A stretch of 64,000 nucleotides of DNA. It comes from Eledone cirrhosa. Its lineage: Eukaryota. Numbering within the stretch: position 1 is the stretch's first letter; each line of letters opens with the position of its first letter. The stretch covers positions 130,448,001-130,512,000 of the forward strand of contig OZ024744.1 in NCBI GenBank assembly GCA_964016885.1, written 5' to 3'. The notes beneath the pieces are model-generated. The model did not search any database. It was not told the origin of the DNA and was given only the letters and a program-made list of their open reading frames with translations. Shown piece after piece: positions 9,801-44,957 of this stretch. The position numbers and the translations under genes were made by a program.

Positions 9801-9954
9801 TTAAGTTGGGTTTAAGTTAAGTTGGGGTTAAGTTAAGTTGGGGTCAAGTTAAGTTGGGGTTAAGTTAAGTTGGTTAGTTAAGTTGAGTTTAAGTTAAGTT
9901 GGGGTTAATTTAAGTTGGGGTTAAGTTAAGTTGGGGTTAAGTTAAGTTGGGGTT

Positions 9955-18044: not shown

Positions 18045-18260
18045 AACCCCAACTTAACTTAACCCCAACTTAATTTAACCCCAACTTCACTCAACCCCAA
18101 CGTAACTCAACCCCAATTTAACTTAACCCCAACTTCACTCAACCCCAACTTAACTTAACCCCAACTTCACTCAATCCCAACTTAAGTCAACCCCAACTTA
18201 ACTTAACCCCAACTTGACTTAACCCCAACTTAACTTAGCCCCAACTTAACTTAAGCCCAA
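18045..18260 (-). repeat. Inverted satellite island 4 (216-bp class)
   Basis: Same junctions and variants as island 3 plus AACTTAATTTAAC. Confidence 0.95.
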
Positions 18261-21190
18261 AGTCGGGGTTAAGTTAAGTTGGGGTTAAGTTAAGTTGCGG
18301 TTAAGTTGGGGTTAAGTTAAGTTAGGGTTAAGTTAAGTTGGGGTTAAGTTGGGGTTAAGTTAAGTTAGGGTTAAGTTAAGTTGGCGTTGAGTTAAGTTGG
18401 GGTTAATTAAGTGGTGGTTATGTTAAGTTGGGGTTAATTTAAATTGGGGTGAAGTTAACTTTGTGGTTAAGTTAAGTTGGGGTTAAGTTAAGTTGGGGTT
18501 AATTTGGGGTTGAGTTAAGTTGGGGTTGAGTGAAGTTGGGGTTAAGTTAAGTTGGGGTTAAGTTAAGTTGGGGATAAGTTAAGTTGGGGATAATTTAAGT
18601 TGGGGTTAAGTTAAGTTGGGTTTAAGTTAAGTTGGGGTTAAGTTAAGTTGGGGATAAGTTAAGTTGGGGTTAAGTTAAGTTGGGGTTAAGTTAAGTTGGG
18701 GTTAAGTTAAGTTGGGGCTAAGTTAAGTTGGGGCTGAGTTAAGTTGGGGTTAAGTTAAGTTGGGGTTAAGTTAAGTTGGGGTTAATTTAAGTTGGGGTTT
18801 ATTTAAGTTGGGGTTAAGTTAAGTTGGGGTTCAGTTAAGTTGGAGTTAAGTTAAGTTGGGGTTAAGATGGGGTTAAATTAAGTTGGGGTTAAGTTAAGTT
18901 TGAGTTTAAGTTAAGTTGGGGTTAAGTTAAGTTGGGGTTAAGTTAAGTTGGGATTAAGTTAAGTTGGTTAGTTAAGTTGAGTTTAAGTTAAGTTGGGGTT
19001 AATTTAAGTTGGGGTTAAGTTAAGCTGGGGTTAAGTTAAGTTGGGGTTAAGTTAAGTTGGGGTTAATTTAAGTTGGGGTTAATTTAAGTCGGGGTTAAGT
19101 TAAGTTGTGGTTGAGTTAAGTTGGGGTTAATTTAAGTTGGGGCTAAGTTAATTTGTGGTTAAGTTAAGTTGGGGTTAAGTTAAGTTGGGGTTAAGTTAAG
19201 TTGGGGTTGAGTTAAGTTGGGGTTGAGTTAATTTGGGGTTAAGTTAAGTTGGGGTTAAGTTAAGTTGGGTTTAAGTTAAGTTGGGCTTAAATTAAGTTGG
19301 GGTTAAGTTAAGTTGGGGGTAAGTTAAGTTGGGGGCAAGTTAAGTTGGGGTTAATTTAAGTTGGGGTTAAATTAAGTTGGGGTTACGTTAAGTTGGTGTT
19401 AAGTTAAGTTGGGGTTAATTTAAGTTGGGGTTGAGTTAAGTTGGGGTTCAGTTAAGTTGGGGATAAGTTAAGTTGGGGTTAAGTTAAGTTGGGGTTAATT
19501 AAGTTGGGGTTAAGTTAAGTTGGGGTTAAGTTAAGTTGGGGCTAAGTTAAGTTGGGGCTGAGTTAAGTTGGGGCTGAGTTAAGTTGGGGTTAAGTTAAGT
19601 TGGGGTTGAGTTAAGTTGGGGTTAAGTTAAGTTGGGGTCAAGTTAAGTTGGGGTTAAGTTGGGGTTAAGTTAAGTTAGGTTTAAGTTAAGTTGGGGTTAA
19701 GTTAAGTTGGGGTTAAGTTAAGTTGGGGTTAAGTTAAGTTGGGGTTAAGTTAATTTGTGGTTTAGTTAAGTTTGGGTTAAGTTAAGTTGGGGTTAAGTTA
19801 AGTTGGGGTTAAGTTAAGTCGTGGTTAAGTTACGTTGGGGTTAAGTTAAGTTGGAGTTAAGTTAAGTTGGGGTTAAGTTAAGTTGGGGTTAAGTTAAGTT
19901 GGGGTTAAGTTAAGTTGGGGTTAAGTTAAGTTGAGGTTTAGTTAAGTTGGGGTTAAATTAAGTTGGGGTTAAGTTAAGTTGGGGTTAAGTTAAGTTGGGG
20001 ATAAGTTAAGTTGGGGATAATTTAAGTTGGGGTTAAGTTAAGTTGGGGTTAAGTTAAGTTGGGGTTAAGTTAAGTTGGGGTTAAGTTAAGTCGTGGTTAA
20101 GTTAAGTTGGGGTTAAGTTAAGTTGGAGTTAAGTTAAGTTGGGGTTAAGTTAAGTTGGGGTTAAGTTAAGTTGGGGTTAAGTTAAGTTGGGGTTAAGTTA
20201 AGTTGAGGTTAAGTTAAGTTGGGGTTAAATTAAGTTGGGGTTAAGTTAAGTTGGGGTTAAGTTAAGTTGGGGATAAGTTAAGTTGGGGATAATTTAAGTT
20301 GGGGTTAAGTTAAGTTGGGGTTAAGTTAAGTTGGGGTTAAGTTAAGTTGGGGATAAGTTAAGTTGGGGTTAAGTTAAGTTGGGGTTAAGTTAAGTTGGGG
20401 TTAAGTTAAGTTGGGGCTAAGTTAAGTTGGGGCTGAGTTAAGTTGGGGTTAAGTTAAGTTGGGGGTTAAGTTAAGTTGGGGTTAATTTAAGTTGGGGTTT
20501 ATTTAAGTTGGGGTTAAGTTAAGTTGGGGTTAAGATGGGGTTAAATTAAGTTGGGGTTAAGTTAAGTTGGGGTTAAGTTAAGTTGGGGTTAAGTTAAGTT
20601 GGGGTTAAGTTAAGTCGGGGTTAAGTTAAGTTAGGGTTGAGTTAAGTTGGGGTTAAGTTAAGTTGGGGTTGAGTTAAGTTGGGGTTGAGTTAAATTGGGG
20701 TTGAGTTAAGTTGGGGTTGAGTTAAGTTGGTGTTGAGTTAAGTTGGGGTTAAGTTAAGTTGGGGTTAAGTTAAGTTGCAGTTAAGTTAAGTTGAGGTTAA
20801 GTTAAGGTGCGGTTAAGTTAAGTTGGGGTTAAGTTAAGTTGGGGCTAATTTAAGTTGGGGCTAAGTTAAGTTGGGGCTAAGTTAAGTTGGGGTTAAGTTA
20901 CGTTGGGGTTAAGTTAAGTCGGGGTTAAGTTAAGTTGGGGTTAAGTTAAGTTGGGGTTAATTTAAGTTGGGGTTAAGTTAAGTTGGGGTTAAGTTAAGTT
21001 GGGGTTAAGTTAAGTTGGGGTTAAGTTGGGTTTAAGTTAAGTTGGGGTTAAGTTAAGTTGGGGTCAAGGTAAGTTGGGGTTAAGTTAAGTTGGTTAGTTA
21101 AGTTGAGTTTAAGTTAAGTTGGGGTTAATTTAAGTTGGGGTTAAGTTAAGTTGGGGTTAAGGTAAGTTGGGGTTAAGTTAAGTTGGGGTT

Positions 21191-21406
21191 AACCCCAACT
21201 TAACTTAACCCCAACTTAATTTAACCCCAACTTCACTCAACCCCAACGTAACTCAACCCCAATTTAACTTAACCCCAACTTCACTCAACCCCAACTTAAC
21301 TTAACCCCAACTTCACTCAATCCCAACTTAAGTCAACCCCAACTTAACTTAACCCCAACTTGACTTAACCCCAACTTAACTTAGCCCCAACTTAACTTAA
21401 GCCCAA
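21191..21406 (-). repeat. Inverted satellite island 5 (216-bp class)
   Basis: Matches island 4 including AACTTAATTTAAC; offset 3146 bp. Confidence 0.95.
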
Positions 21407-24112
21407 AGTCGGGGTTAAGTTAAGTTGGGGTTAAGTTAAGTTGCGGTTAAGTTGGGGTTAAGTTAAGTTAGGGTTAAGTTAAGTTGGGGTTAAGTTGGGG
21501 TTAAGTTAAGTTAGGGTTAAGTTAAGTTGGCGTTGAGTTAAGTTGGGGTTAATTAAGTGGTGGTTATGTTAAGTTGGGGTTAATTTAAATTGGGGTGAAG
21601 TTAACTTTGTGGTTAAGTTAAGTTGGGGTTAAGTTAAGTTGGGGTTAATTTGGGGTTGAGTTAAGTTGGGGTTGAGTGAAGTTGGGGTTAAGTTAAGTTG
21701 GGGTTAAGTTAAGTTGGGGATAAGTTAAGTTGGGGATAATTTAAGTTGGGGTTAAGTTAAGTTGGGTTTAAGTTAAGTTGGGGTTAAGTTAAGTTGGGGA
21801 TAAGTTAAGTTGGGGTTAAGTTAAGTTGGGGTTAAGTTAAGTTGGGGTTAAGTTAAGTTGGGGCTAAGTTAAGTTGGGGCTGAGTTAAGTTGGGGTTAAG
21901 TTAAGTTGGGGTTAAGTTAAGTTGGGGTTAATTTAAGTTGGGGTTTATTTAAGTTGGGGTTAAGTTAAGTTGGGGTTCAGTTAAGTTGGAGTTAAGTTAA
22001 GTTGGGGTTAAGATGGGGTTAAATTAAGTTGGGGTTAAGTTAAGTTTGAGTTTAAGTTAAGTTGGGGTTAAGTTAAGTTGGGGTTAAGTTAAGTTGGGAT
22101 TAAGTTAAGTTGGTTAGTTAAGTTGAGTTTAAGTTAAGTTGGGGTTAATTTAAGTTGGGGTTAAGTTAAGCTGGGGTTAAGTTAAGTTGGGGTTAAGTTA
22201 AGTTGGGGTTAATTTAAGTTGGGGTTAATTTAAGTCGGGGTTAAGTTAAGTTGTGGTTGAGTTAAGTTGGGGTTAATTTAAGTTGGGGCTAAGTTAATTT
22301 GTGGTTAAGTTAAGTTGGGGTTAAGTTAAGTTGGGGTTAAGTTAAGTTGGGGTTGAGTTAAGTTGGGGTTGAGTTAATTTGGGGTTAAGTTAAGTTGGGG
22401 TTAAGTTAAGTTGGGTTTAAGTTAAGTTGGGGTTAAATTAAGTTGGGGTTAAGTTAAGTTGGGGGTAAGTTAAGTTGGGGGCAAGTTAAGTTGGGGTTAA
22501 TTTAAGTTGGGGTTAAATTAAGTTGGGGTTACGTTAAGTTGGTGTTAAGTTAAGTTGGGGTTAATTTAAGTTGGGGTTGAGTTAAGTTGGGGTTCAGTTA
22601 AGTTGGGGATAAGTTAAGTTGGGGTTAAGTTAAGTTGGGGTTAATTAAGTTGGGGTTAAGTTAAGTTGGGGTTAAGTTAAGTTGGGGCTAAGTTAAGTTG
22701 GGGCTGAGTTAAGTTGGGGCTGAGTTAAGTTGGGGTTAAGTTAAGTTGGGGTTGAGTTAAGTTGGGGTTAAGTTAAGTTGGGGTCAAGTTAAGTTGGGGT
22801 TAAGTTGGGGTTAAGTTAAGTTAGGTTTAAGTTAAGTTGGGGTTAAGTTAAGTTGGGGTTAAGTTAAGTTGGGGTTAAGTTAAGTTGGGGTTAAGTTAAT
22901 TTGTGGTTTAGTTAAGTTTGGGTTAAGTTAAGTTGGGGTTAAGTTAAGTTGGGGTTAAGTTAAGTCGTGGTTAAGTTACGTTGGGGTTAAGTTAAGTTGG
23001 AGTTAAGTTAAGTTGGGGTTAAGTTAAGTTGGGGTTAAGTTAAGTTGGGGTTAAGTTAAGTTGGGGTTAAGTTAAGTTGAGGTTTAGTTAAGTTGGGGTT
23101 AAATTAAGTTGGGGTTAAGTTAAGTTGGGGTTAAGTTAAGTTGGGGATAAGTTAAGTTGGGGATAATTTAAGTTGGGGTTAAGTTAAGTTGGGGTTAAGT
23201 TAAGTTGGGGTTAAGTTAAGTTGGGGATAAGTTAAGTTGGGGTTAAGTTAAGTTGGGGTTAAGTTAAGTTGGGGTTAAGTTAAGTTGGGGCTAAGTTAAG
23301 TTGGGGCTGAGTTAAGTTGGGGTTAAGTTAAGTTGGGGGTTAAGTTAAGTTGGGGTTAATTTAAGTTGGGGTTTATTTAAGTTGGGGTTAAGTTAAGTTG
23401 GGGTTCATTTAAGTTGGGGTTAAGTTAAGTTGGGGTTAAGATGGGGTTAAATTAAGTTGGGGTTAAGTTAAGTTGGGGTTAAGTTAAGTTGGGGTTAAGT
23501 TAAGTTGGGGTTAAGTTAAGTCGGGGTTAAGTTAAGTTGGGGTTAAGTTAAGTTAGGGTTGAGTTAAGTTGGGGTTAAGTTAAGTTGGGGTTGAGTTAAG
23601 TTGGGGTTGAGTTAAATTGGGGTTGAGTTAAGTTGGGGTTGAGTTAAGTTGGTGTTGAGTTAAGTTGGGGTTAAGTTAAGTTGGGGTTAAGTTAAGTTGC
23701 AGTTAAGTTAAGTTGAGGTTAAGTTAAGGTGCGGTTAAGTTAAGTTGGGGTTAAGTTAAGTTGGGGCTAAGTTAAGTTGGGGCTAAGTTAAGTTGGGGCT
23801 AAGTTAAGTTGGGGTTAAGTTACGTTGGGGTTAAGTTAAGTCGGGGTTAAGTTAAGTTGGGGTTAAGTTAAGTTGGGGTTAATTTAAGTTGGGGTTAAGT
23901 TAAGTTGGGGTTAAGTTAAGTTGGGGTTAAGTTAAGTTGGGGTTAAGTTGGGTTTAAGTTAAGTTGGGGTTAAGTTAAGTTGGGGTCAAGGTAAGTTGGG
24001 GTTAAGTTAAGTTGGTTAGTTAAGTTGAGTTTAAGTTAAGTTGGGGTTAATTTAAGTTGGGGTTAAGTTAAGTTGGGGTTAAGTTAAGTTGGGGTTAAGT
24101 TAAGTTGGGGTT

Positions 24113-24328
24113 AACCCCAACTTAACTTAACCCCAACTTAACTTAACCCCAACTTCACTCAACCCCAACGTAACTCAACCCCAATTTAACTTAACCCCAA
24201 CTTCACTCAACCCCAACTTAACTTAACCCCAACTTCACTCAATCCCAACTTAAGTCAACCCCAACTTAACTTAACCCCAACTTGACTTAACCCCAACTTA
24301 ACTTAGCCCCAACTTAACTTAAGCCCAA
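24113..24328 (-). repeat. Inverted satellite island 6 (216-bp class)
   Basis: Entry GGGGTT|AACCCC, variants CCCCAATTTAAC and CTCAATCCCAA, standard exit. Confidence 0.95.
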
Positions 24329-26687
24329 AGTCGGGGTTAAGTTAAGTTGGCGTTAAGTTAGGCTTAACTTAAGTTGGGGGTAAGTTAAGTTGGGGGTAAG
24401 TTAAGTTGGGGTTAAGTTAAGTTGCGGTTAAGTTGGGGTTAAGTTAAGTTGGGGCTAAGTTAAGTTGGGGCTGAGTTAAGTTGGGGTTAAGTTAAGTTGG
24501 GGTTAAGTTAAGTTGGGGTTAATTTAAGTTGGGGTTTATTTAAGTTGGGGTTAAGTTAAGTTGGGGTTCAGTTAAGTTGGAGTTAAGTTAAGTTGGGGTT
24601 AAGATGGGGTTAAATTAAGTTGGGGTTAAGTTAAGTTTGAGTTTAAGTTAAGTTGGGGTTAAGTTAAGTTGGGGTTAAGTTAAGTTGGGATTAAGTTAAG
24701 TTGGTTAGTTAAGTTGAGTTTAAGTTAAGTTGGGGTTAATTTAAGTTGGGGTTAAGTTAAGCTGGGGTTAAGTTAAGTTGGGGTTAAGTTAAGTTGGGGT
24801 TAATTTAAGTTGGGGTTAATTTAAGTCGGGGTTAAGTTAAGTTGTGGTTGAGTTAAGTTGGGGTTAATTTAAGTTGGGGCTAAGTTAATTTGTGGTTAAG
24901 TTAAGTTGGGGTTAAGTTAAGTTGGGGTTAAGTTAAGTTGGGGTTGAGTTAAGTTGGGGTTGAGTTAATTTGGGGTTAAGTTAAGTTGGGGTTAAGTTAA
25001 GTTGGGTTTAAGTTAAGTTGGGGTTAAATTAAGTTGGGGTTAAGTTAAGTTGGGGGTAAGTTAAGTTGGGGGCAAGTTAAGTTGGGGTTAATTTAAGTTG
25101 GGGTTAAATTAAGTTGGGGTTACGTTAAGTTGGTGTTAAGTTAAGTTGGGGTTAATTTAAGTTGGGGTTGAGTTAAGTTGGGGTTCAGTTAAGTTGGGGA
25201 TAAGTTAAGTTGGGGTTAAGTTAAGTTGGGGTTAATTAAGTTGGGGTTAAGTTAAGTTGGGGTTAAGTTAAGTTGGGGCTAAGTTAAGTTGGGACTGAGT
25301 TAAGTTGGGGCTGAGTTAAGTTGGGGTTAAGTTAAGTTGGGGTTGAGTTAAGTTGGGGTTAAGTTAAGTTGGGGTCAAGTTAAGCTGGGGTTAAGTTGGG
25401 GTTAAGTTAAGTTAGGTTTAAGTTAAGTTGGGGTTAAGTTAAGTTGGGGTTAAGTTAAGTTGGGGTTAAGTTAAGTTGGGGTTAAGTTAATTTGTGGTTT
25501 AGTTAAGTTTGGGTTAAGTTAAGTTGGGGTTAAGTTAAGTTGGGGTTAAGTTAAGTCGTGGTTAAGTTACGTTGGGGTTAAGTTAAGTTGGAGTTAAGTT
25601 AAGTTGGGGTTAAGTTAAGTTGGGGTTAAGTTAAGTTGGCGTTAAGTTAAGTTGGGGTTAAGTTAAGTTGAGGTTTAGTTAAGTTGGGGTTAAATTAAGT
25701 TGGGGTTAAGTTAAGTTGGGGTTAAGTTAAGTTGGGGATAAGTTAAGTTGGGGATAATTTAAGTTGGGGTTAAGTTAAGTTGGGGTTAAGTTAAGTTGGG
25801 GTTAAGTTAAGTTGGGGATAAGTTAAGTTGGGGTTAAGTTAAGTTGGGGTTAAGTTAAGTTGGGGTTAAGTTAAGTTGGGGCTAAGTTAAGTTGGGGCTG
25901 AGTTAAGTTGGGGTTAAGTTAAGTTGGGGGTTAAGTTAAGTTGGGGTTAATTTAAGTTGGGGTTTATTTAAGTTGGGGTTAAGTTAAGTTGGGGTTCATT
26001 TAAGTTGGGGTTAAGTTAAGTTGGGGTTAAGATGGGGTTAAATTAAGTTGGGGTTAAGTTAAGTTGGGGTTAAGTTAAGTTGGGGTTAAGTTAAGTTGGG
26101 GTTAAGTTAAGTCGGGGTTAAGTTAAGTCGGGGTTAAGTTAAGTTAGGGTTGAGTTAAGTTGGGGTTAAGTTAAGTTGGGGTTGAGTTAAGTTGGGGTTG
26201 AGTTAAATTGGGGTTGAGTTAAGTTGGGGTTGAGTTAAGTTGGTGTTGAGTTAAGTTGGGGTTAAGTTAAGTTGGGGTTAAGTTAAGTTGCAGTTAAGTT
26301 AAGTTGAGGTTAAGTTAAGGTGCGGTTAAGTTAAGTTGGGGTTAAGTTAAGTTGGGGCTAAGTTAAGTTGGGGCTAAGTTAAGTTGGGGCTAAGTTAAGT
26401 TGGGGTTAAGTTACGTTGGGGTTAAGTTAAGTCGGGGTTAAGTTAAGTTGGGGTTAAGTTAAGTTGGGGTTAATTTAAGTTGGGGTTAAGTTAAGTTGGG
26501 GTTAAGTTAAGTTGGGGTTAAGTTAAGTTGGGGTTAAGTTGGGTTTAAGTTAAGTTGGGGTTAAGTTAAGTTGGGGTCAAGGTAAGTTGGGGTTAAGTTA
26601 AGTTGGTTAGTTAAGTTGAGTTTAAGTTAAGTTGGGGTTAATTTAAGTTGGGGTTAAGTTAAGTTGGGGTTAAGTTAAGTTGGGGTT

Positions 26688-26810
26688 AACCCCAACTTAA
26701 CTTAACCCCAACTTAACTTAACCCCAACTTCACTCAACCCCAACGTAACTCAACCCCAATTTAACTTAACCCCAACTTCACTCAACCCCAACTTAACTTA
26801 ACCCCAACTT
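26688..26810 (-). repeat. Inverted satellite island 7 (truncated 216-bp class, ~123 bp)
   Basis: Has CCCCAATTTAAC but lacks the distal units and the standard exit; leaves through the perfect palindrome CCCCAACTT|AAGTTGGGG. Confidence 0.93.
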
Positions 26811-28035
26811 AAGTTGGGGGTAAGTTAAGTTGGGGGTAAGTTAAGTTGGGGTTAAGTTAAGTTGCGGTTAAGTTGGGGTTAAGTTAAGTTAGGGTTAAGT
26901 TAAGTTGGCGTTGAGTTAAGTTGGGGTTAATTAAGTGGTGGTTATGTTAAGTTGGGGTTAATTTAAATTGGGGTGAAGTTAACTTTGTGGTTAAGTTAAG
27001 TTGGGGTTAAGTTAAGTTGGGGTTAAGTTGGGGTTGAGTTAAGTTGGGGTTGAGTGAAGTTGGGGTTAAGTTAAGTTGGGGTAAAGTTAAGTTGGGGTTA
27101 AGTTAAGTCGGGGTTAAGTTAAGTTGTGGTTGAGTTAAGTTGGGGTTAATTTAAGTTGGGGCTAAGTTAATTTGTGGTTAAGTTAAGTTGGGGTTAAGTT
27201 AAGTTGGGGTTAAGTTAAGTTGGGGTTAAGTTAAGTTGCAGTTAAGTTAAGTTGAGGTTAAGTCAAGTTGGGGTTAAGTTAAGTTGGGGTTAAGTTAACT
27301 TGGGGTTCAGTTAAGTTGGGGCTAAGTTAAGTTGGGGTTAAGATGGGGTTAAATTAAGTTGGGGTTAAGTTAAGTTGGGGTTAAGTTAAGTTGGGGTTAA
27401 GTTAAGTTGGGGTTAAGTTAAGTCGGGGTTAAGTTAAGTCGGGGTTAAGTTAAGTTAGGGTTCAGTTAAGTTGGGGTTAAGTTAAGTTGGGGTTGAGTTA
27501 AGTTGGGGTTGAGTTAAATTGGGGTTGAGTTAAGTTGGGGTTGAGTTAAGTTGGTGTTGAGTTAAGTTGGGGTTAAGTTAAGTTGGGGTTAAGTTAAGTT
27601 GCAGTTAAGTTAAGTTGAGGTTAAGTTAAGGTGCGGTTAAGTTAAGTTGGGGTTAAGTTAAGTTGGGGCTAAGTTAAGTTGGGGCTAAGTTAAGTTGGGG
27701 CTAAGTTAAGTTGGGGTTAAGTTACGTTGGGGTTAAGTTAAGTCGGGGCTAAGTTAAGTTGGGGTTAAGTTAAGTTGGGGTTAATTTAAGTTGGGGTTGA
27801 GTTAAGTTGGGGTTAAGTTTAGTTGGGGTTAAGTTAAGTTGGGGTTAAGTTAAGTTGGGTTTAAGTTAAGTTGGGGTTAAGTTAAGTTGGGGTCAAGTTA
27901 AGTTGGGGTTAAGTTAAATTGGTTAGTTAAGTTGAGTTTAAGTTAAGTTGGGATTAATTTAAGTTGGGGTTAAGTTAAGTTGGGGTTAAGTTAATTTGGG
28001 GTTAAGTTAAGTTGGGGTTAAGTTAAGTTGGGGTT

Positions 28036-28219
28036 AACCCCAACTTAACTTAACCCCAACTTCACTCAACCCCAACGTAACTCAACCCCAACTTAACTTA
28101 ACCCCAACTTCACTCAACCCCAAATTAACTTAACCCCAACTTCACTCAACCCCAACTTAAGTCAACCCCAACTTAACTTAACCCCAACTTGACTTAACCC
28201 CAACTTAACTTAAGCCCAA
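28036..28219 (-). repeat. Inverted satellite island 8 (184-bp class)
   Basis: Lacks the TTAGCCCC unit; exit GCCCAAAGTCGGAG. Confidence 0.95.
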
Positions 28220-30316
28220 AGTCGGAGTTAAGTTAAGTTGGCGTTAAGTTAAGTTAGGTTTAACTTAAGTTGGGGGTAAGTTAAGTTGGGGGTAAGTTAA
28301 GTTGGGGTTAAGTTAAGTTGCGGTTAAGTTGGGGTTAAGTTAAGTTAGGGTTAAGTTAAGTTGGCGTTGAGTTAAGTTGGGGTTAATTAAGTGGTGGTTA
28401 TGTTAAGTTGGGGTTAATTTAAATTGGGGTGAAGTTAACTTTGTGGTTAAGTTAAGTTGGGGTTAAGTTAAGTTGGGGTTAAGTTGGGGTTGAGTTAAGT
28501 TGGGGTTGAGTGAAGTTGGGGTTAAGTTAAGTTGGGGTAAAGTTAAGTTGGGGTTAAGTTAAGTCGGGGTTAAGTTAAGTTGTGGTTGAGTTAAGTTGGG
28601 GTTAATTTAAGTTGGGGCTAAGTTAATTTGTGGTTAAGTTAAGTTGGGGTTAAGTTAAGTTGGGGTTAAGTTAAGTTGGGGTTAAGTTAAGTTGCAGTTA
28701 AGTTAAGTTGAGGTTAAGTTAAGTTGGGGTTAAGTTAAGTTGGGGTTAAGTTAAGTTGGGGCTAAGTTAAGTTGGGGCTAAGTTAAGTTGGGGCTAAGTT
28801 AAGTTGGGGTTAAGTTAAGTTGGGGTTAAGTTAAGTTGGGGTTAAGTTAAGTTGGGGTTAAGTTAAGTTGGGGTTAAGTTAAGTTGGTGTTAAGTTAAGT
28901 TGGGGCTAAGTTAAGTTGGGGCTGAGTTAAGTTGGGGCTGAGTTAAGTTGGGGTTAAGTTAAGTTGGGGTTGAGTTAAGTTGGGGTTAAGTTAAGTTGGG
29001 GTCAAGTTAAGTTGGGGTTAAGTTGGGGTTAAGTTAAGTTAGGTTTAAGTTAAGTTGGGGTTAAGTTAAGTTGGGGTTAAGTTAAGTTGGGGTTAAGTTA
29101 AGTTGGGGTTAAGTTAATTTGTGGTTAAGTTAAGTTGGGGTTAAGTTAAGTTGGGGTTAAGTTAAGTCGGGGTTAAGTTAAGTTGGGGTTAAGTTAAGTT
29201 GGGGTTAATTTAAGTTGGGGTTAAGTTAAGTTGGGGTTAAGTTAAGTTGGGGATAATTTAAGTTGGGGTTAAGTTAAGTTTGGGTTTAAGTTAAGTTGGG
29301 GTTAAGTTAAGTTGGGGTTAAGTTAAGTTGGGGTTAAGTTAAGTTGGTTAGTTAAGTTGAGTTTAAGTTAAGTTGGGGTTAATTTAAGTTGGGGTTAAGT
29401 TAAGCTGGGGTTAAGTTAAGTTGGGGTTAAGTTAAGTTGGGGTTAATTTAAGTTGGGGTTAAGTTAAGTTGCGGGTAATTTAAGTTGGGGTTAAGTTAAG
29501 TTGGGGTTAAGTTAAGTTGGGGTTAAGTTAAGTTGGGATTAAGTTAAGTTGGGGCTAATTTAAGTTGGGGCTGAGTTAAGTTGGGGTTAAGTTAAGTTGG
29601 GGTTAAGTTAAGTTGGGGTTAAGTTAAGTTGGGGTTAAGTTAAGTTGGGGTTTATTTAAGTTGGGGTTAAGTTAAGTTGGGGTTCAGTTAAGTTGGGGTT
29701 CAGTTAAGTTGGGGTTAAGTTAAGTTGGGGTTAAGATGAGGTTAAATTACGTTGGAGTTAAGTTAAGTTGGGGTTAAGTTAAGTTGGGGTTAAGTTAAGT
29801 TGGGGTTAAGTTAAGTCGGGGTTAATTTAAGTCGGGGTTAAGTTAAGTTAGGGTTCAGTTAAGTTGGGGTTAAGTTAAGTTGGGCTTGAGTTAAGTTGGG
29901 GTTGAGTTAAATTGGGGTTGAGTTAAGTTGGGGTTGAGTTAAGTTGGTGTTGAGTTAAGTTGGGGTTAAGTTAAGTTGGGGTTAAGTTAAGTTGCAGTTA
30001 AGTTAAGTTGAGGTTAAGTTAAGGTGCGGTTAAGTTTAGTTGGGCTTAAGTTAAGTTGGGGCTAAGTTAAGTTGGGGCTAAGTTAAGTTGGGGCTAAGTT
30101 AAGTTGGGGTTAAGTTAAGTTGGGGTTAAGTTAAGTCGGGGTTAAGTTAAGTTGGGGTTAAGTTAAGTTGGGGTTAAGTTAAGTTGGGGTTAAGTTAAGT
30201 TGGTTAGTTAAGTTGAGTTTAAGTTAAGTTGGGGTTAATTTAAGTTGGGGTTAAGTTAAGTTGGGGTTGAGTTACGTTGGGGTTGAGTGAAGTTGGGGTT
30301 AAGTTAAGTTGGGGTT

Positions 30317-30459
30317 AACCCCAACTTAACTTAACCCCAACTTAACTTAACCCCAACTTCACTCAACCCCAACTTAACTTAACCCCAACTTCACTCAACC
30401 CCAACTTCCAACTTGACTTAACCCCAACTTAACTTAGCCCCAACTTAACTTAAGCCCAA
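30317..30459 (-). repeat. Inverted satellite island 9 (175-bp class with flipped centre, ~143 bp)
   Basis: Has AACTTCCAACTTGAC; lacks the AACGTAACTC unit, whose reverse complement GAGTTACGTT lies just left of the centre (30263-30278 unit). Confidence 0.94.
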
Positions 30460-32068
30460 AGTCGGGGTTAAGTTAAGTTGGCGTTAAGTTAAGTTGGCGT
30501 TAAGTTAAGTTAGGCTTAACTTAAGTTGGGGTTCAGTTAAGTTGGGGGTAAGTTAAGTTGGGGTTAAGTTAAGTTAGGGTTAAGTTAAGTTGGGGTTGAG
30601 TTAAGTTGGGGTTAATTAAGTGGTGGTTATGTTAAGTTGGGGTTAAGTTAAGTTGGGGTTAATTTAAATTGGGGTTAAGTTAACTTTGTGGTTAAGTTAA
30701 GTTGGGGTTAAGTTAAGTTGGGGTAAAGTTGGGGTTGAGTTAAGTTGGGGTTGAGTGAAGTTGGGGTTAAGTTAAGTTGGGGTTAAGTTAAGTTGGGGTT
30801 AAGATAAGTCGGGGTTAAGTTAAGTTGTGGTTGAGTTAAGTTGGGGTTAATTTAAGTTGGGGCTAAGTTAATTTGTGGTTAAGTTAAGTTGGGGTTAAGT
30901 TAAGTTGGGGTTAAGTTAAGTTGGGGTTGAGTTAAGTTGGGGCTAAGTTAATTTGGGGTTAAGTTAAGTTGGGGTTAAGTTAAGTTGGGTTTAAGTTAAG
31001 TTGGGGTTAAATTAAGTTGGGGTTAAATTAAGTTGGGGTTAAGTTAAGTTGGGGGTAAGTTAAGTTGGGGCTGAGTTAAGTTGGGGTTAAGTTAAGTTGA
31101 GGTTAAGTTAAGTTGGGGTTAAATTAAGTTGGGGTTAAGTTAAGTTGGGGTTAAGTTAAGTTGGGGATAAGTTAAGTTGGGGATAATTTAAGTTGGGGTT
31201 AAGTTAAGTTGGGGTTAAGTTAAGTTGGGGTTAAGTTAAGTTGGGGATAAGTTAAGTTGGGGTTAAGTTAAGTTGGGGTTAAGTTAAGTTGGGGTTAAGT
31301 TAAGTTGGGGCTAAGTTAAGTTGGGGCTGAGTTAAGTTGGGGTTAAGTTAAGTTGGGGGTTAAGTTAAGTTGGGGTTAATTTAAGTTGGGGTTTATTTAA
31401 GTTGGGGTTAAGTTAAGTTGGGGTTCAGTTAAGTTGGGGTTAAGTTAAGTTGGGGTTAAGATGGGGTTAAATTAAGTTGGGGTTAAGTTAAGTTGGGGTT
31501 AAGTTAAGTTGGGGTTAAGTTAAGTTGGGGTTAAGTTAAGTCGGGGTTAAGTTAAGTCGGGGTTAAGTTAAGTTAGGGTTCAGTTAAGTTGGGGTTAAGT
31601 TAAGTTGGGGTTGAGTTAAGTTGGGGTTGAGTTAAATTGGGGTTGAGTTAAGTTGGGGTTGAGTTAAGTTGGTGTTGAGTTAAGTTGGGGTTAAGTTAAG
31701 TTGGGGTTAAGTTAAGTTGCAGTTAAGTTAAGTTGAGGTTAAGTTAAGGTGCGGTTAAGTTAAGTTGGGGTTAAGTTAAGTTGGGGCTAAGTTAAGTTGG
31801 GGCTAAGTTAAGTTGGGGTTAAGTTACGTTGGGGTTAAGTTAAGTCGGGGTTAAGTTAAGTTGGGGTTAAGTTAAGTTGGGGTTAATTTAAGTTGGGGTT
31901 AAGTTAAGTTGGGGTTAAGTTAAGTTGGGGTTAAGTTAAGTTGGGGTTAAGTTGGGTTTAAGTTAAGTTGGGGTTAAGTTAAGTTGGTTAGTTAAGTTGA
32001 GTTTAAGTTAAGTTGGGGTTAATTTAAGTTGGGGTTAAGTTAAGTTGGGTTTAAGTTAAGTTGGGGTT

Positions 32069-32284
32069 AACCCCAACTTAACTTAACCCCAACTTAACTT
32101 AACCCCAACTTCACTCAACCCCAACGTAACTCAACCCCAATTTAAATTAACCCCAACTTCACTCAACCCCAACTTAACTTAACCCCAACTTCACTCAATC
32201 CCAACTTAAGTCAACCCCAACTTAACTTAACCCCAACTTGACTTAACCCCAACTTAACTTAGCCCCAACTTAACTTAAGCCCAA
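32069..32284 (-). repeat. Inverted satellite island 10 (216-bp class)
   Basis: Variants CCCCAATTTAAATTAA and CTCAATCCCAA; standard junctions. Confidence 0.95.
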
Positions 32285-33556
32285 AGTCGGGGTTAAGTTA
32301 AGTTGGCGTTAAGTTAAGTTAGGCTTAACTTAAGTTGGGGGTAAGTTAAGTTGGGGGTAAGTTAAGTTGGGGTTAAGTTAAGTTGCGGTTAAGTTGGGGT
32401 TAAGTTAAGTTAGGGTTAAGTTAAGTTGGCGTTGAGTTAAGTTGGGGTTAATTAAGTGGTGGTTATGTTAAGTTGGGGTTAATTTAAATTGGGGTGAAGT
32501 TAACTTTGTGGTTAAGTTAAGTTGGGGTTAAGTTAAGTTGGGGTTAAGTTGGGGTTGAGTTAAGTTGGCGTTGAGTGAAGTTGGGGTTAAGTTAAGTTGG
32601 GGTAAAGTTAAGTTGGGGTTAAGTTAAGTCGGGGTTAAGTTAAGTTGTGGTTGAGTTAAGTTGGGGTTAATTTAAGTTGGGGCTAAGTTAATTTGTGGTT
32701 AAGTTAAGTTGGGGTTAAGTTAAGTTGGGGTTAAGTTAAGTTGGGGTTAAGTTAAGTTGCAGTTAAGTTAAGTTGAGGTTAAGTCAAGTTGGGGTTAAGT
32801 TAAGTTGGGGTTAAGTTAACTTGGGGTTCAGTTAAGTTGGGGCTAAGTTAAGTTGGGGTTAAGATGGGGTTAAATTAAGTTGGGGTTAAGTTAAGTTGGG
32901 GTTAAGTTAAGTTGGGGTTAAGTTAAGTTGGGGTTAAGTTAAGTCGGGGTTAAGTTAAGTCGGGGTTAAGTTAAGTTAGGGTTCAGTTAAGTTGGGGTTA
33001 AGTTAAGTTGGGGTTGAGTTAAGTTGGGGTTGAGTTAAATTGGGGTTGAGTTAAGTTGGGGTTGAGTTAAGTTGGTGTTGAGTTAAGTTGGGGTTAAGTT
33101 AAGTTGGGGTTAAGTTAAGTTGCAGTTAAGTTAAGTTGAGGTTAAGTTAAGGTGCGGTTAAGTTAAGTTGGGGTTAAGTTAAGTTGGGGCTAAGTTAAGT
33201 TGGGGCTAAGTTAAGTTGGGGCTAAGTTAAGTTCGGGTTAAGTTACGTTGGGGTTAAGTTAAGTCGGGGCTAAGTTAAGTTGGGGTTAAGTTAAGTTGGG
33301 GTTAATTTAAGTTGGGGTTGAGTTAAGTTGGGGTTAAGTTTAGTTGGGGTTAAGTTAAGTTGGGGTTAAGTTAAGTTGGGTTTAAGTTAAGTTGGGGTTA
33401 AGTTAAGTTGGGGTCAAGTTAAGTTGGGGTTAAGTTAAGTTGGTTAGTTAAGTTGAGTTTAAGTTAAGTTGGGGTTAATTTAAGTTGGGGTTAAGTTAAG
33501 TTGGGGTTAAGTTAATTTGGGGTTAAGTTAAGTTGGGGTTAAGTTAAGTTGGGGTT

Positions 33557-33740
33557 AACCCCAACTTAACTTAACCCCAACTTCACTCAACCCCAACGTA
33601 ACTCAACCCCAACTTAACTTAACCCCAACTTCACTCAACCCCAACTTAACTTAACCCCAACTTCACTCAACCCCAACTTAAGTCAACCCCAACTTAACTT
33701 AACCCCAACTTGACTTAACCCCAACTTAACTTAAGCCCAA
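33557..33740 (-). repeat. Inverted satellite island 11 (184-bp class)
   Basis: Lacks the TTAGCCCC unit; exit GCCCAAAGTCGGAG. Confidence 0.95.
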
Positions 33741-35554
33741 AGTCGGAGTTAAGTTAAGTTGGCGTTAAGTTAAGTTAGGCTTAACTTAAGTTGGGGGTAA
33801 GTTAAGTTGGGGGTAAGTTAAGTTGGGGTTAAGTTAAGTTGCGGTTAAGTTGGGGTTAAGTTAAGTTAGGGTTAAGTTAAGTTGGCGTTGAGTTAAGTTG
33901 GGGTTAATTAAGTGGTGGTTATGTTAAGTTGGGGTTAATTTAAATTGGGGTGAAGTTAACTTTGTGGTTAAGTTAAGTTGCAGTTAAGTTAAGTTGAGGT
34001 TAAGTTAAGTTGGGGTTAAGTTAAGTTGGGGTTAAGTTAAGTTGGGGCTAAGTTAAGTTGGGGCTAAGTTAAGTTGGGGCTAAGTTAAGTTGGGGTTAAG
34101 TTAAGTTGGGGTTAAGTTAAGTTGGGGTTAAGTTAAGTTGGGGTTAAGTTAAGTTGGTGTTAAGTTAAGTTGGGGCTAAGTTAAGTTGGGGCTGAGTTAA
34201 GTTGGGGCTGAGTTAAGTTGGGATTAAGTTAAGTTGGGGTTGAGTTAAGTTGGGGTTAAGTTAAGTTGGGGTCAAGTTAAGTTGGGGTTAAGTTGGGGTT
34301 AAGTTAAGTTAGGTTTAAGTTAAGTTGGGGTTAAGTTAAGTTGGGGTTAAGTTAAGTTGGAGTTAAGTTAAGTTGGGGTTAAGTTAAGTTGGGGTTAAGT
34401 TAATTTGTGGTTAAGTTAAGTTGGGGTTAAGTTAAGTTGGGGTTAAGTTAAGTCGGGGTTAAGTTAAGTTGGGGTTAAGTTAAGTTGGGGTTAATTTAAG
34501 TTGGGGTTAAGTTAAGTTGGGGTTAAGTTAAGTTGGGGATAATTTAAGTTGGGGTTAAGTTAAGTTTGGGTTTAAGTTAAGTTGGGGTTAAGTTAAGTTG
34601 GGGTTAAGTTAAGTTGGGGTTAAGTTAAGTTGGTTAGTTAAGTTGAGTTTAAGTTAAGTTGGGGTTAATTTAAGTTGGGGTTAAGTTAAGCTGGGGTTAA
34701 GTTAAGTTGGGGTTAAGTTAAGTTGGGGTTAATTTAAGTTGGGGTTAAGTTAAGTTGCGGGTAATTTAAGTTGGGGTTAAGTTAAGTTGGGGTTAAGTTA
34801 AGTTGGGGTTAAGTTAAGTTGGGGTTAAGTTAAGTTGGGGTTAAGTTAAGTTGGGGCTAATTTAAGTTGGGGCTGAGTTAAGTTGGGGTTAAGTTAAGTT
34901 GGGGTTAAGTTAAGTTGGGGTTAAGTTAAGTTGGGGTTTATTTAAGTTGGGGTTAAGTTAAGTTGGGGTTCAGTTAAGTTGGGGTTCAGTTAAGTTGGGG
35001 TTAAGATGGGGTTAAATTACGTTGGAGTTAAGTTAAGTTGGGGTTAAGTTAAGTTGGGGTTAAGTTAAGTTGGGGTTAAGTTAAGTCGGGGTTAATTTAA
35101 GTCGGGGTTAAGTTAAGTTAGGGTTCAGTTAAGTTGGGGTTAAGTTAAGTTGGGCTTGAGTTAAGTTGGGGTTGAGTTAAATTAGGGTTGAGTTAAGTTG
35201 GGGTTGAGTTAAGTTGGTGTTGAGTTAAGTTGGGGTTAAGTTAAGTTGGGGTTAAGTTAAGTTGCAGTTAAGTTAAGTTGAGGTTAAGTTAAGGTGCGGT
35301 TAAGTTAAGTTGGGCTTAAGTTAAGTTGGGGCTAAGTTAAGTTGGGGCTAAGTTAAGTTGGGGCTAAGTTAAGTTGGGGTTAAGTTAAGTTGGGGTTAAG
35401 TTAAGTCGGGGTTAAGTTAAGTTGGGGTTAAGTTAAGTTGGGGTTAAGTTAAGTTGGGGTTAAGTTAAGTTGGTTAGTTAAGTTGAGTTTAAGTTAAGTT
35501 GGGGTTAATTTAAGTTGGGGTTAAGTTAAGTTGGGGTTAAGTTAAGTTGGGGTT

Positions 35555-35729
35555 AACCCCAACTTAACTTAACCCCAACTTCACTCAACCCCAACGTAAC
35601 TCAACCCCAACTTAACTTAACCCCAACTTCACTCAACCCCAACTTAACTTAACCCCAACTTCACTCAACCCCAACTTCCAACTTGACTTAACCCCAACTT
35701 AACTTAGCCCCAACTTAACTTAAGCCCAA
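35555..35729 (-). repeat. Inverted satellite island 12 (175-bp class)
   Basis: AACTTCCAACTTGAC; standard junctions. Confidence 0.95.
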
Positions 35730-38700
35730 AGTCGGGGTTAAGTTAAGTTGGCGTTAAGTTAAGTTGGCGTTAAGTTAAGTTAGGCTTAACTTAAGTTGGG
35801 GTTCAGTTAAGTTGGGGGTAAGTTAAGTTGGGGTTAAGTTAAGTTAGGGTTAAGTTAAGTTGGGGTTGAGTTAAGTTGGGGTTAATTAAGTGGTGGTTAT
35901 GTTAAGTTGGGGTTAAGTTAAGTTGGGGTTAATTTAAATTGGGGTTAAGTTAACTTTGTGGTTAAGTTAAGTTGGGGTTAAGTTAAGTTGGGGTAAAGTT
36001 GGGGTTGAGTTAAGTTGGGGTTGAGTGAAGTTGGGGTTAAGTTAAGTTGGGGTTAAGTTAAGTTGGGGTTAAGATAAGTCGGGGTTAAGTTAAGTTGTGG
36101 TTGAGTTAAGTTGGGGTTAATTTAAGTTGGGGCTAAGTTAATTTGTGGTTAAGTTAAGTTGTGGTTAAGTTAAGTTGGGGTTAAGTTAAGTTGGGGTTGA
36201 GTTAAGTTGGGGCTAAGTTAATTTGGGGTTAAGTTAAGTTGGGGTTAAGTTAAGTTGGGTTTAAGTTAAGTTGGGGTTAAATTAAGTTGGGGTTAAATTA
36301 AGTTGGGGTTAAGTTAAGTTGGGGGTAAGTTAAGTTGGGGGCAAGTTAAGTTGGGGTTAATTTAAGTTGGGGTTAAATTAAGTTGGGGTTACGTTAAGTT
36401 GGTGTTAAGTTAAGTTGGGGTTAATTTAAGTTGGGGTTAATTAAGTTGGGGTTAAGTTAAGTTGGGGTTAAGGTAAGTTGGGGTTAATTTAAGTTGGGGT
36501 TGAGTTAAGTTGGGGTTAAGTTAAGTTGGGGTTATATTAAGTTGGGGTTAAGTTAAGTTGGGGTTCAGTTAAGTTGGGGTTAAGTTAAGTTGGGGTTAAG
36601 TTAAGTTGAGGTTAAGTTAAGTTGGGGTTAAGTTAAGTTGGTGTTAAGTTAAGTTGGGGCTAAGTTAAGTTGGGGCTGAGTTAAGTTGGGGCTGAGTTAA
36701 GTTGGGGCTAAGTTAAGTTGGGGTTGACTTAAGTTGGGGTTAAGTTGGGGTTAAGTTAAGTTAGGTTTAAGTTAAGTTGGGGTTAAGTTAAGTTGGGGTT
36801 AAGTTAAGTTGGGGTTAAGTTAAGTTGGGGTTAAGTTAAGTTGGGGTTAAGTTAAGTTGGGGTTAAGTTAATTTGTGGTTAAGTTAAGTTGTGGTTAAGT
36901 TAAGTTGGGGTTAAGTTAAGTTGGGGTTAAGTTAAGTCGGGGTTAAGTTAAGTTGGGGTTAAGTTAAGTTGGGGTTAATTTAAGTTGGGGTTAAGTTAAG
37001 TTGGGGTTAAGTTAAGTTGGGGTTAAGTTAAGTCGGGGTTAAGTTAAGTTGGGGTTAAGTTAAGTTGGGGTTAATTTAAGTTGGGGTTAAGTTAAGTTGG
37101 GGTTAAGTTAAGTTGGGGTTAAGTTAAGTTGGGGTTAAGTTAAGTTGGGGATAATTTAAGTTGGGGTTAAGTTAAGTTTGAGTTTAAGTTAAGTTGGGGT
37201 TAAGTTAAGTTGGGGTTAAGTTAAGTTGGGGTTAAGTTAAGTTGGTTAGTTAAGTTGAGTTTAAGTTAAGTTGGGGTTAATTTAAGTTGGGGTTAAGTTA
37301 AGCTGGGGTTAAGTTAAGTTGGGGTTAAGTTAAGTTGGGGTTAATTTAAGTTGGGGTTAAGTTAAGTTGCGGGTAATTTAAGTTGGGGTTAAGTTAAGTT
37401 GGGGTTAAGTTAAGTTGGGGTTAAGTTAAGTTGGGGTTAAGTTAAGTTGGGGTTAAGTTAAGTTGGGGCTAATTTAAGTTGGGGCTGAGTTAAGTTGGGG
37501 TTAAGTTAAGTTGGGGTTAAGTTAAGTTGGGGTTAAGTTAAGTTGGGGTTTATTTAAGTTGGGGTTAAGTTAAGTTGGGGTTCAGTTAAGTTGGGGTTCA
37601 GTTAAGTTGGGGTTAAGTTAAGTTGGGGTTAAGATGGGGTTAAATTACGTTGGAGTTAAGTTAAGTTGGGGTTAAGTTAAGTTGGGGTTAAGTTAAGTTG
37701 GGGTTAAGTTAAGTCGGGGTTAATTTAAGTCGGGGTTAAGTTAAGTTAGGGTTCAGTTAAGTTGGGGTTAAGTTAAGTTGGGGTTGAGTTAAGTTGGGGT
37801 TGAGTTAAATTGGGGTTCAGTTAAGTTGGGGTTGAGTTAAGTTGGTGTTGAGTTAAGTTGGGGTTAAGTTAAATTGGGGTTAAGTTAAGTTGCAGTTAAG
37901 TTAAGTTGAGGTTAAGTTAAGGTGCGGTTAAGTTAAGTTGGGCTTAAGTTAAGTTGGGGCTAAGTTAAGTTGGGGCTCAGTTAAGTTGGGGCTAAGTTAA
38001 GTTGGGGTTAAGTTAAGTTGGGGTTAATTTAAGTTGGGGTTAAGTTAAGTTGGGGTTAAGTTAAGTTGGGGTTAAGTTAAGTTGGGTTTAAGTTAAGTTG
38101 GGGTTAAGTTAAGTTGGGTTTAAGTTAAGTTGGGGTTAAATTAAGTTGGGGTTAAAATAAGTTGGGGTTAAGTTAAGTTGGGGGTAAGTTAAGTTGGGGG
38201 CAAGTTAAGTTGGGGTTAATTTAAGTTGGGGTTAAATTAAGTTGGGGTTACGTTAAGTTGGTGTTAAGTTAAGTTGGGGTTAATTTAAGTTGGGGTTAAT
38301 TAAGTTGGGGTTAAGTTAAGTTGGGGTTAAGTTAAGTTGGGGTTAATTTAAGTTGGGGTTGAGTTAAGTTGGGGTTAAGTTAAGTTGGGGTTATATTAAG
38401 TTGGGGTTAAGTTAAGTTGGGGTTAATTTAAGTTGGGGTTAAGTTAAGTTGGGGTTAAGTTAAGTTGGTGTTAAGTTAAGTTTGGGCTAAGTTAAGTTGG
38501 GGTTGAGTTAAGTTGGGGTTAAGTTGGGGTTAAATTAAGTTAGGTTTAAGTTAAGTTGGGGTTAAGTTAAGTTGGGGTTAAGTTAAGTTGTGGTTAAGTT
38601 AAGTTGGGGTTAAGTTAAGTTGGGGTTAAGTTAAGTCGGGGTTGAGTTAAGTTGGGGTTAAGTTAAGTTGGGGTTAATTTAAGTTGGGGTTAAGTTAAGT

Positions 38701-38787
38701 TGGGGTTAAGTAAAGTTGGGGTTAATTTAAGTTGGGGTTAAGTTAAGTTGGGGTTAAGTTAAGTTGGGGTTAAGTTAAGTTGGGGTT

Positions 38788-38971
38788 AACCCCAACTTAA
38801 CTTAACCCCAACTTCACTCAACCCCAACGTAACTCAACCCCAACTTAACTTAACCCCAACTTCACTCAACCCCAACTTAACTTAACCCCAACTTCACTCA
38901 ACCCCAACTTAAGTCAACCCCAACTTAACTTAACCCCAACTTGACTTAACCCCAACTTAACTTAAGCCCAA
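38788..38971 (-). repeat. Inverted satellite island 13 (184-bp class)
   Basis: Matches island 11 at offset 5231 bp; exit GCCCAAAGTCGGAG. Confidence 0.95.
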
Positions 38972-40785: not shown

Positions 40786-40960
40786 AACCCCAACTTAACT
40801 TAACCCCAACTTCACTCAACCCCAACGTAACTCAACCCCAACTTAACTTAACCCCAACTTCACTCAACCCCAACTTAACTTAACCCCAACTTCACTCAAC
40901 CCCAACTTCCAACTTGACTTAACCCCAACTTAACTTAGCCCCAACTTAACTTAAGCCCAA
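40786..40960 (-). repeat. Inverted satellite island 14 (175-bp class)
   Basis: Matches island 12 at offset 5231 bp. Confidence 0.95.
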
Positions 40961-44782: not shown

Positions 44783-44957
44783 AACCCCAACTTAACTTAA
44801 CCCCAACTTCACTCAACCCCAACGTAACTCAACCCCAACTTAACTTAACCCCAACTTCACTCAACCCCAACTTAACTTAACCCCAACTTCACTCAACCCC
44901 AACTTCCAACTTGACTTAACCCCAACTTAACTTAGCCCCAACTTAACTTAAGCCCAA
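44783..44957 (-). repeat. Inverted satellite island 15 (175-bp class)
   Basis: AACTTCCAACTTGAC; standard junctions. Confidence 0.95.

What the first reader, a model, noticed from the sequence alone, without database searches (positions are those of the whole stretch)
30263..30338. Palindrome centre caught after a flip: a length-conserving micro-inversion across the dyad
Seen: sister copies (35555, 40786) read plain,plain | plain,TTCACTC,AACGTAACTC,plain,TTCACTC,plain,TTCACTC,TTCCAAC. Here the left arm reads plain,GAGTTACGTT,GAGTGAAGTT,plain and the right arm plain,plain,TTCACTC,plain,TTCACTC,TTCCAAC. This is exactly the result of inverting one left monomer plus the centre plus three right monomers (~76 bp), shifting the dyad by two monomers with no net length change. 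Inference: out-of-register recombination or double template switch between the arms of the palindrome, direct evidence that the junctions are recombination-active, resembling hairpin-associated flip-flop inversions.
Basis: partly seen in the sequence, partly recalled or inferred. Interest (0 to 1): 0.7.

Follow-up and report, generated by a model that had tools for sequence, protein, structure and literature searches.

The report
Rare flip across a satellite palindrome
Inside a long array of a 16-letter DNA repeat, a 64-118-letter stretch across a palindrome centre is reversed relative to its sister copies, likely through a copying error between matching back-to-back repeats, and such flips are rare here, so this is likely an ordinary mutation rather than a junction that keeps flipping.

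Summary
The inversion is real in the assembly. Re-inverting 30263-30338 turns 26 mismatches into 0 over 501 bp against the sister at +5270. Its ends can only be bracketed (64-118 bp) because they lie in a perfect 27-bp inverted repeat. 'No net length change' holds only against its chosen sisters; the closest relatives by flank are 16 and 32 bp longer. 'Flip-flop' is not supported: a whole-assembly search found 3 flipped loci (2 events) among 491 marker copies, and of 176 islands with an asymmetric mark near the dyad only one is mirrored, inside a separate 2.45-kb inversion. The second event carries an 80-bp deletion, is duplicated, and fits one non-reciprocal switch, which favours switch-and-return copying over a crossover. 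Reads could not test it. This is a known mutation type (inverted-repeat spacer inversion) in an unusual setting. The scan noted the island family, and larger inversions seeded by it, before on other parts of this array; no note on this centre flip came up.

The parts
30269..30332 (-). Minimal inverted segment (64 bp); carries the ACG-marked and GTG-marked monomers, one plain monomer and the palindrome centre
   Evidence: All 26 mismatches to the sister lie here and vanish on re-inversion
30242..30268 (+). Left arm of the perfect 27-bp inverted repeat; the left breakpoint lies somewhere in it
   Evidence: homology 27 at switch 1
30333..30359 (-). Right arm of the perfect 27-bp inverted repeat; the right breakpoint lies somewhere in it
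   Evidence: homology 27 at switch 2
30267..30298 (+). Two island-type monomers (ACG-marked, GTG-marked) now reading forward on the left arm: the visible trace of the flip
   Evidence: Pair occurs once forward and 18 times reversed in the window
30290..30343 (.). Present head-to-head palindrome, perfect arms 27 bp, dyad at 30316/30317 (32 bp right of its place in the sisters)
30317..30460 (-). Remaining inverted island (two monomers shorter than the sister islands)
30452..30467 (.). Tail junction of the island, asymmetric, in the usual orientation
35512..35629 (+). Unflipped sister with the same span (inverted-repeat arms 35512-35538 and 35603-35629)
40743..40860 (+). Second unflipped sister with the same span (offset 10501)
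2..64000 (+). Host array: 16-bp satellite, about 4,032 monomers, with 19 short inverted islands

Best explanation
A 64-118-bp segment spanning the palindrome centre of one inverted island is reversed between two perfect 27-bp inverted repeats, likely made once in the germline by a replication template switch to the opposite strand and back. Shown: the reversal, the 27-bp repeats at both ends, the 32-bp dyad shift, its single copy, and a second independent centre flip nearby. Inferred: the polymerase left the left arm inside a plain monomer, re-primed on the complementary strand at the matching plain monomer of the right arm (out of register by two monomers), copied back across the centre, and returned at the other matching arm (switch order 1-3-2-4). 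Inferred: whether the event was length-neutral depends on the parent, which had two to four plain monomers on the left arm; with the nearest relative as parent, one monomer was lost in the same switch or by separate slippage. The event has no apparent function; it is a rare by-product of an array in which forward and reversed monomers lie side by side.
For: One four-point switch explains the locus from every parent type tried (5 of 5), with 27/27 bp homology for 4 of 5. Second event at C28:130,512,958 and 130,570,318: same marker pair moved to the left arm in another island lineage, 80 bp shorter than its parent type, fitted by one switch pair with 25 and 13 bp homology against 3 of 4 candidate parents (the fourth has a flank substitution); a reciprocal crossover cannot give that in one step. 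Its two copies differ at 5 of 3,000 bp, so it was inherited and duplicated. A 2.45-kb inversion with a 31-bp perfect repeat at its ends lies 0.85 Mb away. Published: type 1-3-2-4 only inverts a fragment and made up 45% of high-confidence human-chimp switch events (PMC5453318, passages and model section); template switching fits micro-inversions with long perfect flanking repeats, and 27 bp is below the 50-250 bp quoted for homologous recombination (PMC8755829, Discussion).
Against: Sequence alone cannot separate a fork switch from microhomology-mediated break repair on the sister chromatid (PMC8755829), nor a local template from any of about 490 near-identical islands read on the other strand. 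The second event may be a clean flip plus a later deletion; arm-length changes are common (21 of 234 islands differ from every nearest relative). The locus is single-copy and no read support was obtainable. The smallest predicted switch product, inversion of the single G between the two TTAA words of the monomer, is not enriched: 1 of 33 rare changes at that base.
Confidence: 0.55

Rival explanations
1. Break repair: a break at or near the hairpin-prone centre was repaired by invasion of the 27-bp repeat into the opposite arm of the sister chromatid, or into another island copy, copying across the centre and re-annealing (microhomology-mediated BIR or SDSA-like conversion).
For: Gives the same product; proposed for all 59 definite human-chimp micro-inversions (PMC8755829, Discussion). 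Explains loss of sequence around the centre in the second event (perfect arm cut from 27 to 11 bp). About 490 potential donors exist. Both short flips cross the perfect head palindrome and none crosses the imperfect tail, though 2 versus 0 is not significant.
Against: No donor-specific letter or junction insertion in the copied segment (0 mismatches). The few private flank substitutions are about what the background predicts (61 in 64 kb), so no repair-associated cluster is seen.
Confidence: 0.25
2. Reciprocal crossover between the left and right arms of one molecule, out of register, as in classical inverted-repeat inversion.
Against: 27 bp is below the 50-250 bp quoted for homologous recombination, and matching positions of the two arms are only 91 bp apart, under the 145-bp persistence length used as an argument in PMC8755829 (that argument was made for segments under 33 bp). 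The second event is non-reciprocal. The nearest relatives are longer, so reciprocity is not established.
Confidence: 0.09
3. Assembly, library or somatic artefact: one molecule was inverted at the hairpin in vitro or in one cell lineage and became the contig sequence.
For: Single copy in the assembly; no read support obtained; no 31-mer in 30200-30420 is rare enough to tell the forms apart.
Against: The same kind of event is present in two diverged copies 57 kb apart (5 differences in 3,000 bp), which an artefact would not give; both junctions are clean and in monomer register.
Confidence: 0.08
4. No inversion: the forward HG-type monomer pair found elsewhere in the array was inserted on the left arm, mutated by one base, and the matching pair was deleted from the right arm.
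For: The ACG monomer differs from a common forward monomer by one base, and a forward ACG-GTG pair without any island exists at C28:131,413,632. A deletion join brought a forward pair next to a centre at C28:130,419,007.
Against: Needs three events that exactly mimic one. The right-arm string left after the loss occurs in no other island of the 399 listed, and the left flank here is the ordinary island flank, not the context of the forward pair.
Confidence: 0.02

Closest known systems
Inverted-repeat spacer inversion by short-range template switching (Ripley model; four-point type 1-3-2-4, PMC5453318: passages and model section read)
   Same: Exact reverse complement of the parent segment, flanked by inverted repeats, explained by one switch-and-return with order 1-3-2-4.
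   Different: Here the repeats are satellite monomers, so several registers are possible; the spacer itself holds a palindrome, so the dyad moves; hundreds of sister copies supply the ancestral state.
Definite human-chimpanzee micro-inversions (PMC8755829: abstract and whole Discussion read)
   Same: Clean inversion whose ends abut perfect inverted repeats; mechanism undecided between template switch and microhomology-mediated BIR.
   Different: Those are 17-33 nt in alignable sequence and about five orders of magnitude rarer than substitutions; this one is 64-118 bp inside a satellite, and per island roughly as frequent as a few single-base changes (rough).
Hairpin-associated small inversions and flip-flop in chloroplast DNA (PMC12928735: passages; PMC2903610: abstract)
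   Same: Small inversion bounded by short inverted repeats at a stem-loop.
   Different: There both orientations recur or coexist and the loop turns inside its own stem; here the flip is out of register and the flipped form is 3 of 491 copies, with no free mirror images.
Conserved, amplified inversion sites of Tribolium madens satellites (macro-dyad symmetries, PMC13081366: passages)
   Same: A satellite array with hundreds of near-identical strand-switch junctions (346 of 455 centres match one 20-nt consensus exactly).
   Different: Tribolium arms are kilobases long and roughly symmetric; here most islands are 8-30 monomers in a forward array. The passages read describe no secondary micro-inversion across a site.

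Membership tests
Inverted-repeat spacer micro-inversion | Segment is the exact reverse complement of the parental segment | tested here: met
   0 of 501 mismatches after re-inversion
Inverted-repeat spacer micro-inversion | Perfect or near-perfect inverted repeats abut both ends | tested here: met
   27-bp perfect arms 30242-30268 and 30333-30359
Inverted-repeat spacer micro-inversion | Derived state, with the unflipped state ancestral | tested here: met
   3 flipped of 491 marker copies; all nearest relatives unflipped
Four-point template switch, type 1-3-2-4 | Sequence is explained by one switch pair in order 1,3,2,4 | tested here: met
   Order 1-3-2-4 for 4 of 5 parent types tried; the shortest parent needs order 3-1-2-4
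Four-point template switch, type 1-3-2-4 | Arises at a replication fork rather than in break repair | not testable with these tools
   Both routes give the same letters (PMC8755829)
Hairpin flip-flop inversion | Both orientations recur or coexist at appreciable frequency | tested here: not met
   0 of 107 and 1 of 176 marked centres mirrored, the one inside a larger inversion; 2 of 438 oriented tail junctions reversed, same inversion. Caveat: a mark breaks the perfect arm and may itself lower flipping
Hairpin flip-flop inversion | Loop turns within its own in-register stem, dyad fixed | tested here: not met
   Dyad moved 32 bp
Hairpin flip-flop inversion | Both isomers of one locus seen in reads of one individual | tested here: inconclusive
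   RAD reads do not cover the island; contigs cannot separate the forms
Site-specific invertase switch | Dedicated recombination sites with a recombinase gene or unique site nearby | tested here: not met
   The window is one satellite array from 2 to 64000; the breakpoints are ordinary monomers
Tribolium-type macro-dyad satellite | Conserved, amplified inversion junction | tested here: met
   346 of 455 centres identical, 435 within one mismatch
Tribolium-type macro-dyad satellite | Multi-kilobase, roughly symmetric arms | tested here: not met
   Island lengths mostly 8-30 monomers
Tribolium-type macro-dyad satellite | (Peri)centromeric location or function | not testable with these tools
   No chromatin data; array sampled from 128.5 to 135.0 Mb of a 136.5-Mb contig

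The most novel reading that the evidence does not exclude
The perfect head-to-head palindrome of each island is itself a trigger (cruciform stall or break), so the dyads slide along the array by repeated out-of-register flips, most of them silent because they move only plain monomers. Each island would then invert about as often as a few bases mutate, on the order of a thousand times the per-base hominid micro-inversion rate, and the array with its hundreds of replicate junctions would be a natural reporter for the germline rate and register of inverted-repeat inversions in an animal.
Probability: 0.2. Interest if true: 0.5.

Novelty: new member of a known kind. Interest (0 to 1): 0.24.

Why it matters
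As it stands it is a clean example of a known mutation. Its value is the setting: about 490 replicate junctions give an ancestral state and a denominator, so a rate can be put on it (1 private flip in 399 islands against 569 private substitutions in 1.0 Mb; wide error, and the index event is ascertained). It also bears on the open question whether conserved satellite inversion sites are active structures or passengers: here they are mostly passive, with flips far rarer than monomer slippage at the same spot (18 private left-arm length changes in 234 islands), yet they do seed inversions from 0.1 to 2.5 kb.

Tried and rejected
Reads. One run search returned 11 rows: 3 contig sets of one sample that hold about 70% of the words, 3 raw RAD runs added by species label, 5 with small shares. 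RAD reads laid on 30150-30560 (241, 342, 222 reads) mostly ran on into unlike sequence, gave no depth at 30402-30499, and all 24 reads over 30275 lacked the marker base, so they come from other repeat copies and say nothing about this locus. Contigs cannot decide, since none of the 31-mers in 30200-30420 has 2 or fewer copies. No contig in 4 runs covered the 31-mers specific to the second flip; the tool warns that holes prove nothing. Single-base spacer inversion inside the monomer: not enriched (1 of 33). Folding: perfect arm 27 bp before and after; predicted energy for centre +/-100 bp is -90.6 against -77.1 (sister) and -82.7 (three-monomer type) kcal/mol, and the gap narrows to about 6 at +/-130 bp, so no clear gain; the larger gap was a window-placement effect. 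Silent dyad shifts: left and right plain-run counts vary, but flips cannot be told from slippage. Rows dropped: 8 islands whose left flank normally holds a C-type monomer, and the deletion join at C28:130,419,007, were flagged by the screen and rejected as flips; 2 of 455 rows were mis-centred. Of the 48 opposite-strand marker copies, 5 were inspected (3 flips, 1 ordinary island in an inverted block, 1 lone pair); the other 43 were covered only by the pattern search, which sees only flips that carry the ACG-GTG pair across and keep a GTG monomer close on the right. Literature: no paper in the held library holds the monomer (0 hits); some searches returned 1, 0 and 2 papers, none on this by title or abstract start. 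No supplements were opened.

Full report
Setting. The whole window is one 16-bp satellite, about 4,032 copies, with 19 short reversed islands. It lies at G000:C28:130,448,001-130,512,000 of a 3.0-Gb assembly. Twenty spaced samples show the array from at least 128.5 to 135.0 Mb of the 136.5-Mb contig, with large reversed blocks and an AT-rich second repeat near 132.05-132.65 Mb. I tiled 1,244,000 bp around the window (130.228-131.472 Mb) and found 455 islands; 346 share a 20-nt head-to-head centre exactly and 435 within one mismatch. The islands are therefore likely copies of one old inversion. Below, P is a plain monomer, G and A the GTG- and ACG-marked ones, T a left-flank marker, lower case means reversed, and | is the dyad.

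Observation. The sisters read T P P | p g a p g p g; the locus reads T P A G P | p p g p g. Against the sister at +5270, 30100-30600 has 26 mismatches, all in 30269-30332; reverse-complementing 30263-30338 leaves 0 of 501. Twenty-eight nested intervals fit equally, 64 to 118 bp, because both ends lie in a perfect 27-bp inverted repeat (30242-30268, 30333-30359). The dyad moves 32 bp. The A monomer is forward once and reversed 18 times in the window; the flipped junction has one match in the assembly. The inversion is confirmed.

Length conservation is not established. The left plain run is hypervariable: 18 of 234 islands with a near-identical relative differ from it in left-arm length alone. 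Every parent type gives the locus either by one switch pair or by a clean inversion plus one monomer indel (5 of 5). So the flip is certain and its net length change is 0, -16 or -32 bp depending on the parent.

Recurrence. A whole-assembly pattern for the A-G pair on the left of a centre with g close on the right found 3 loci among 491 copies of the A-G marker (48 + 443); the tool warns that repeat counts are lower bounds, and the pattern misses flips that do not carry this pair. Two of the three (C28:130,512,958, just beyond the window, and 130,570,318) are copies of one other event in another island lineage: M P A G P | g, 80 bp shorter than its parent type. It fits one switch pair with 25 and 13 bp of homology for 3 of 4 candidate parents. 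The two copies differ at 5 of 3,000 bp, so this event was inherited and duplicated, which argues that such flips are biological. A strand scan of the tiled region also found a 2.45-kb inversion at about 131,323,830-131,326,300 that starts inside an island; re-inverting it restores 157 of 162 junction 40-mers and shows a 31-bp perfect repeat at the ends.

Not a flip-flop. Asymmetric marks near the dyad record any flip whose ends lie outside them. 107 of 453 centres carry a mark within 11 bp, with no mirror image; 176 carry one within 27 bp, with one mirror image, inside the 2.45-kb inversion. Tail junctions are asymmetric by nature: 436 point the usual way and 2 are reversed, both in that inversion. 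A mark weakens the arm and may reduce flipping, and flips that move only plain monomers across an unmarked centre leave no trace, so this bounds visible flipping only. As a rough rate: 1 private flip in 399 islands against 569 private substitutions in 1,007,288 callable bp, that is about 4 base-equivalents per island (Poisson range about 0.1-25, limits); the index event is ascertained and the substitution count includes conversions and errors. Slippage at the same spot is about an order of magnitude commoner.

Mechanism. Shown: exact reversal, 27-bp homology at both ends, out-of-register pairing, a second non-reciprocal case. Inferred: a polymerase left the left arm in a plain monomer, re-primed on the opposite strand at the matching plain monomer between a and g, copied back over the centre and returned. 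This is type 1-3-2-4 of the four-point model, which only inverts a fragment and made up 45% of high-confidence human-chimp events (PMC5453318, passages and model section). PMC8755829 (abstract and Discussion) accepts template switching for long perfect flanking repeats, puts the homology needed for recombination at 50-250 bp, and offers microhomology-mediated BIR as an alternative that gives the same letters. I give 0.55 to a fork switch, 0.25 to break repair or conversion from another island, 0.09 to crossover, 0.08 to artefact and 0.02 to mimicry by indels. Against a general excess of local switching, the predicted one-base spacer inversion inside the monomer is 1 of 33 rare changes at that base. 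The flip leaves the perfect arm at 27 bp and improves predicted folding only modestly.

Reads. Neither laying could test the locus. RAD reads of other samples miss the island, contigs built on 31-mers cannot separate the two forms, and no contig covered the second flip's specific words. Artefact is thus not excluded for this single copy.

Comparison and novelty. It works like, and passes the sequence tests for, an inverted-repeat spacer micro-inversion. It fails the tests for chloroplast-type flip-flop (PMC12928735 passages; PMC2903610 abstract). The island family resembles the conserved inversion sites of Tribolium madens (PMC13081366 passages) but with short arms. Searches of the held library found no paper with this monomer and none, by title or abstract start, on a micro-inversion across a satellite dyad; most subscription papers are not in that library and no supplements were opened. 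Earlier unreviewed notes of this scan describe the same island family and larger inversions ending in islands elsewhere in this array; look-ups near the locus and by words for a centre flip returned nothing. Verdict: real, correctly spotted, a new member of a known kind; interest 0.24.

Noticed in passing
G000:C28:130,512,958 (L012:958) and 130,570,318: Second, independent centre flip with an 80-bp deletion, present in two copies 57,360 bp apart that differ at 5 of 3,000 bp.
   Followed up: yes
G000:C28:about 131,323,830-131,326,300 (L105): 2.45-kb single-copy inversion that begins inside one island and carries two tail junctions and one head in reversed orientation; 31-bp perfect repeat at the ends.
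   Followed up: partly
G000:C28:131,394,157 and 131,404,280 (L112, L113): About 170 bp of normally forward flank sequence sits reversed in the middle of an island, in two copies 10,123 bp apart; donor not identified.
   Followed up: partly
window 26685-26830: Truncated island joined to the downstream flank through a short shared word, creating a new tail junction; another truncated type occurs twice at C28:130,418,253 and 130,422,462.
   Followed up: partly
G000:C28:131,385,422 and 131,397,386: Tail junction changed by one base into a perfect palindrome (2 copies against 67 of the usual form): possible quasi-palindrome correction, or a plain substitution.
   Followed up: no
G000:C28:131,413,632 (L114): Forward ACG-GTG pair with no island beside it, followed by a marker normally found just downstream of an island: a point mutation, a conversion, or a flip whose island was then deleted.
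   Followed up: no
G000:C28:131.96-133.3 Mb (L120, L121, L130-L135): Large reversed blocks of the array (from about 131.965 Mb, and at 132.9 and 133.3 Mb) and an AT-rich second repeat (19-31% GC) mixed in at 132.05-132.65 Mb.
   Followed up: no
reads laid on window 30150-30400: About 90% of RAD reads with this 16-mer run on into unrelated AT-rich sequence, some sharing one flank, which suggests short dispersed copies of the monomer outside the array, perhaps in a mobile element.
   Followed up: no
G000:C28:128.5-130.24 Mb: Five 3-kb samples and the first 19 kb of the tiled region hold the same satellite without islands, so islands are confined to part of the array.
   Followed up: partly
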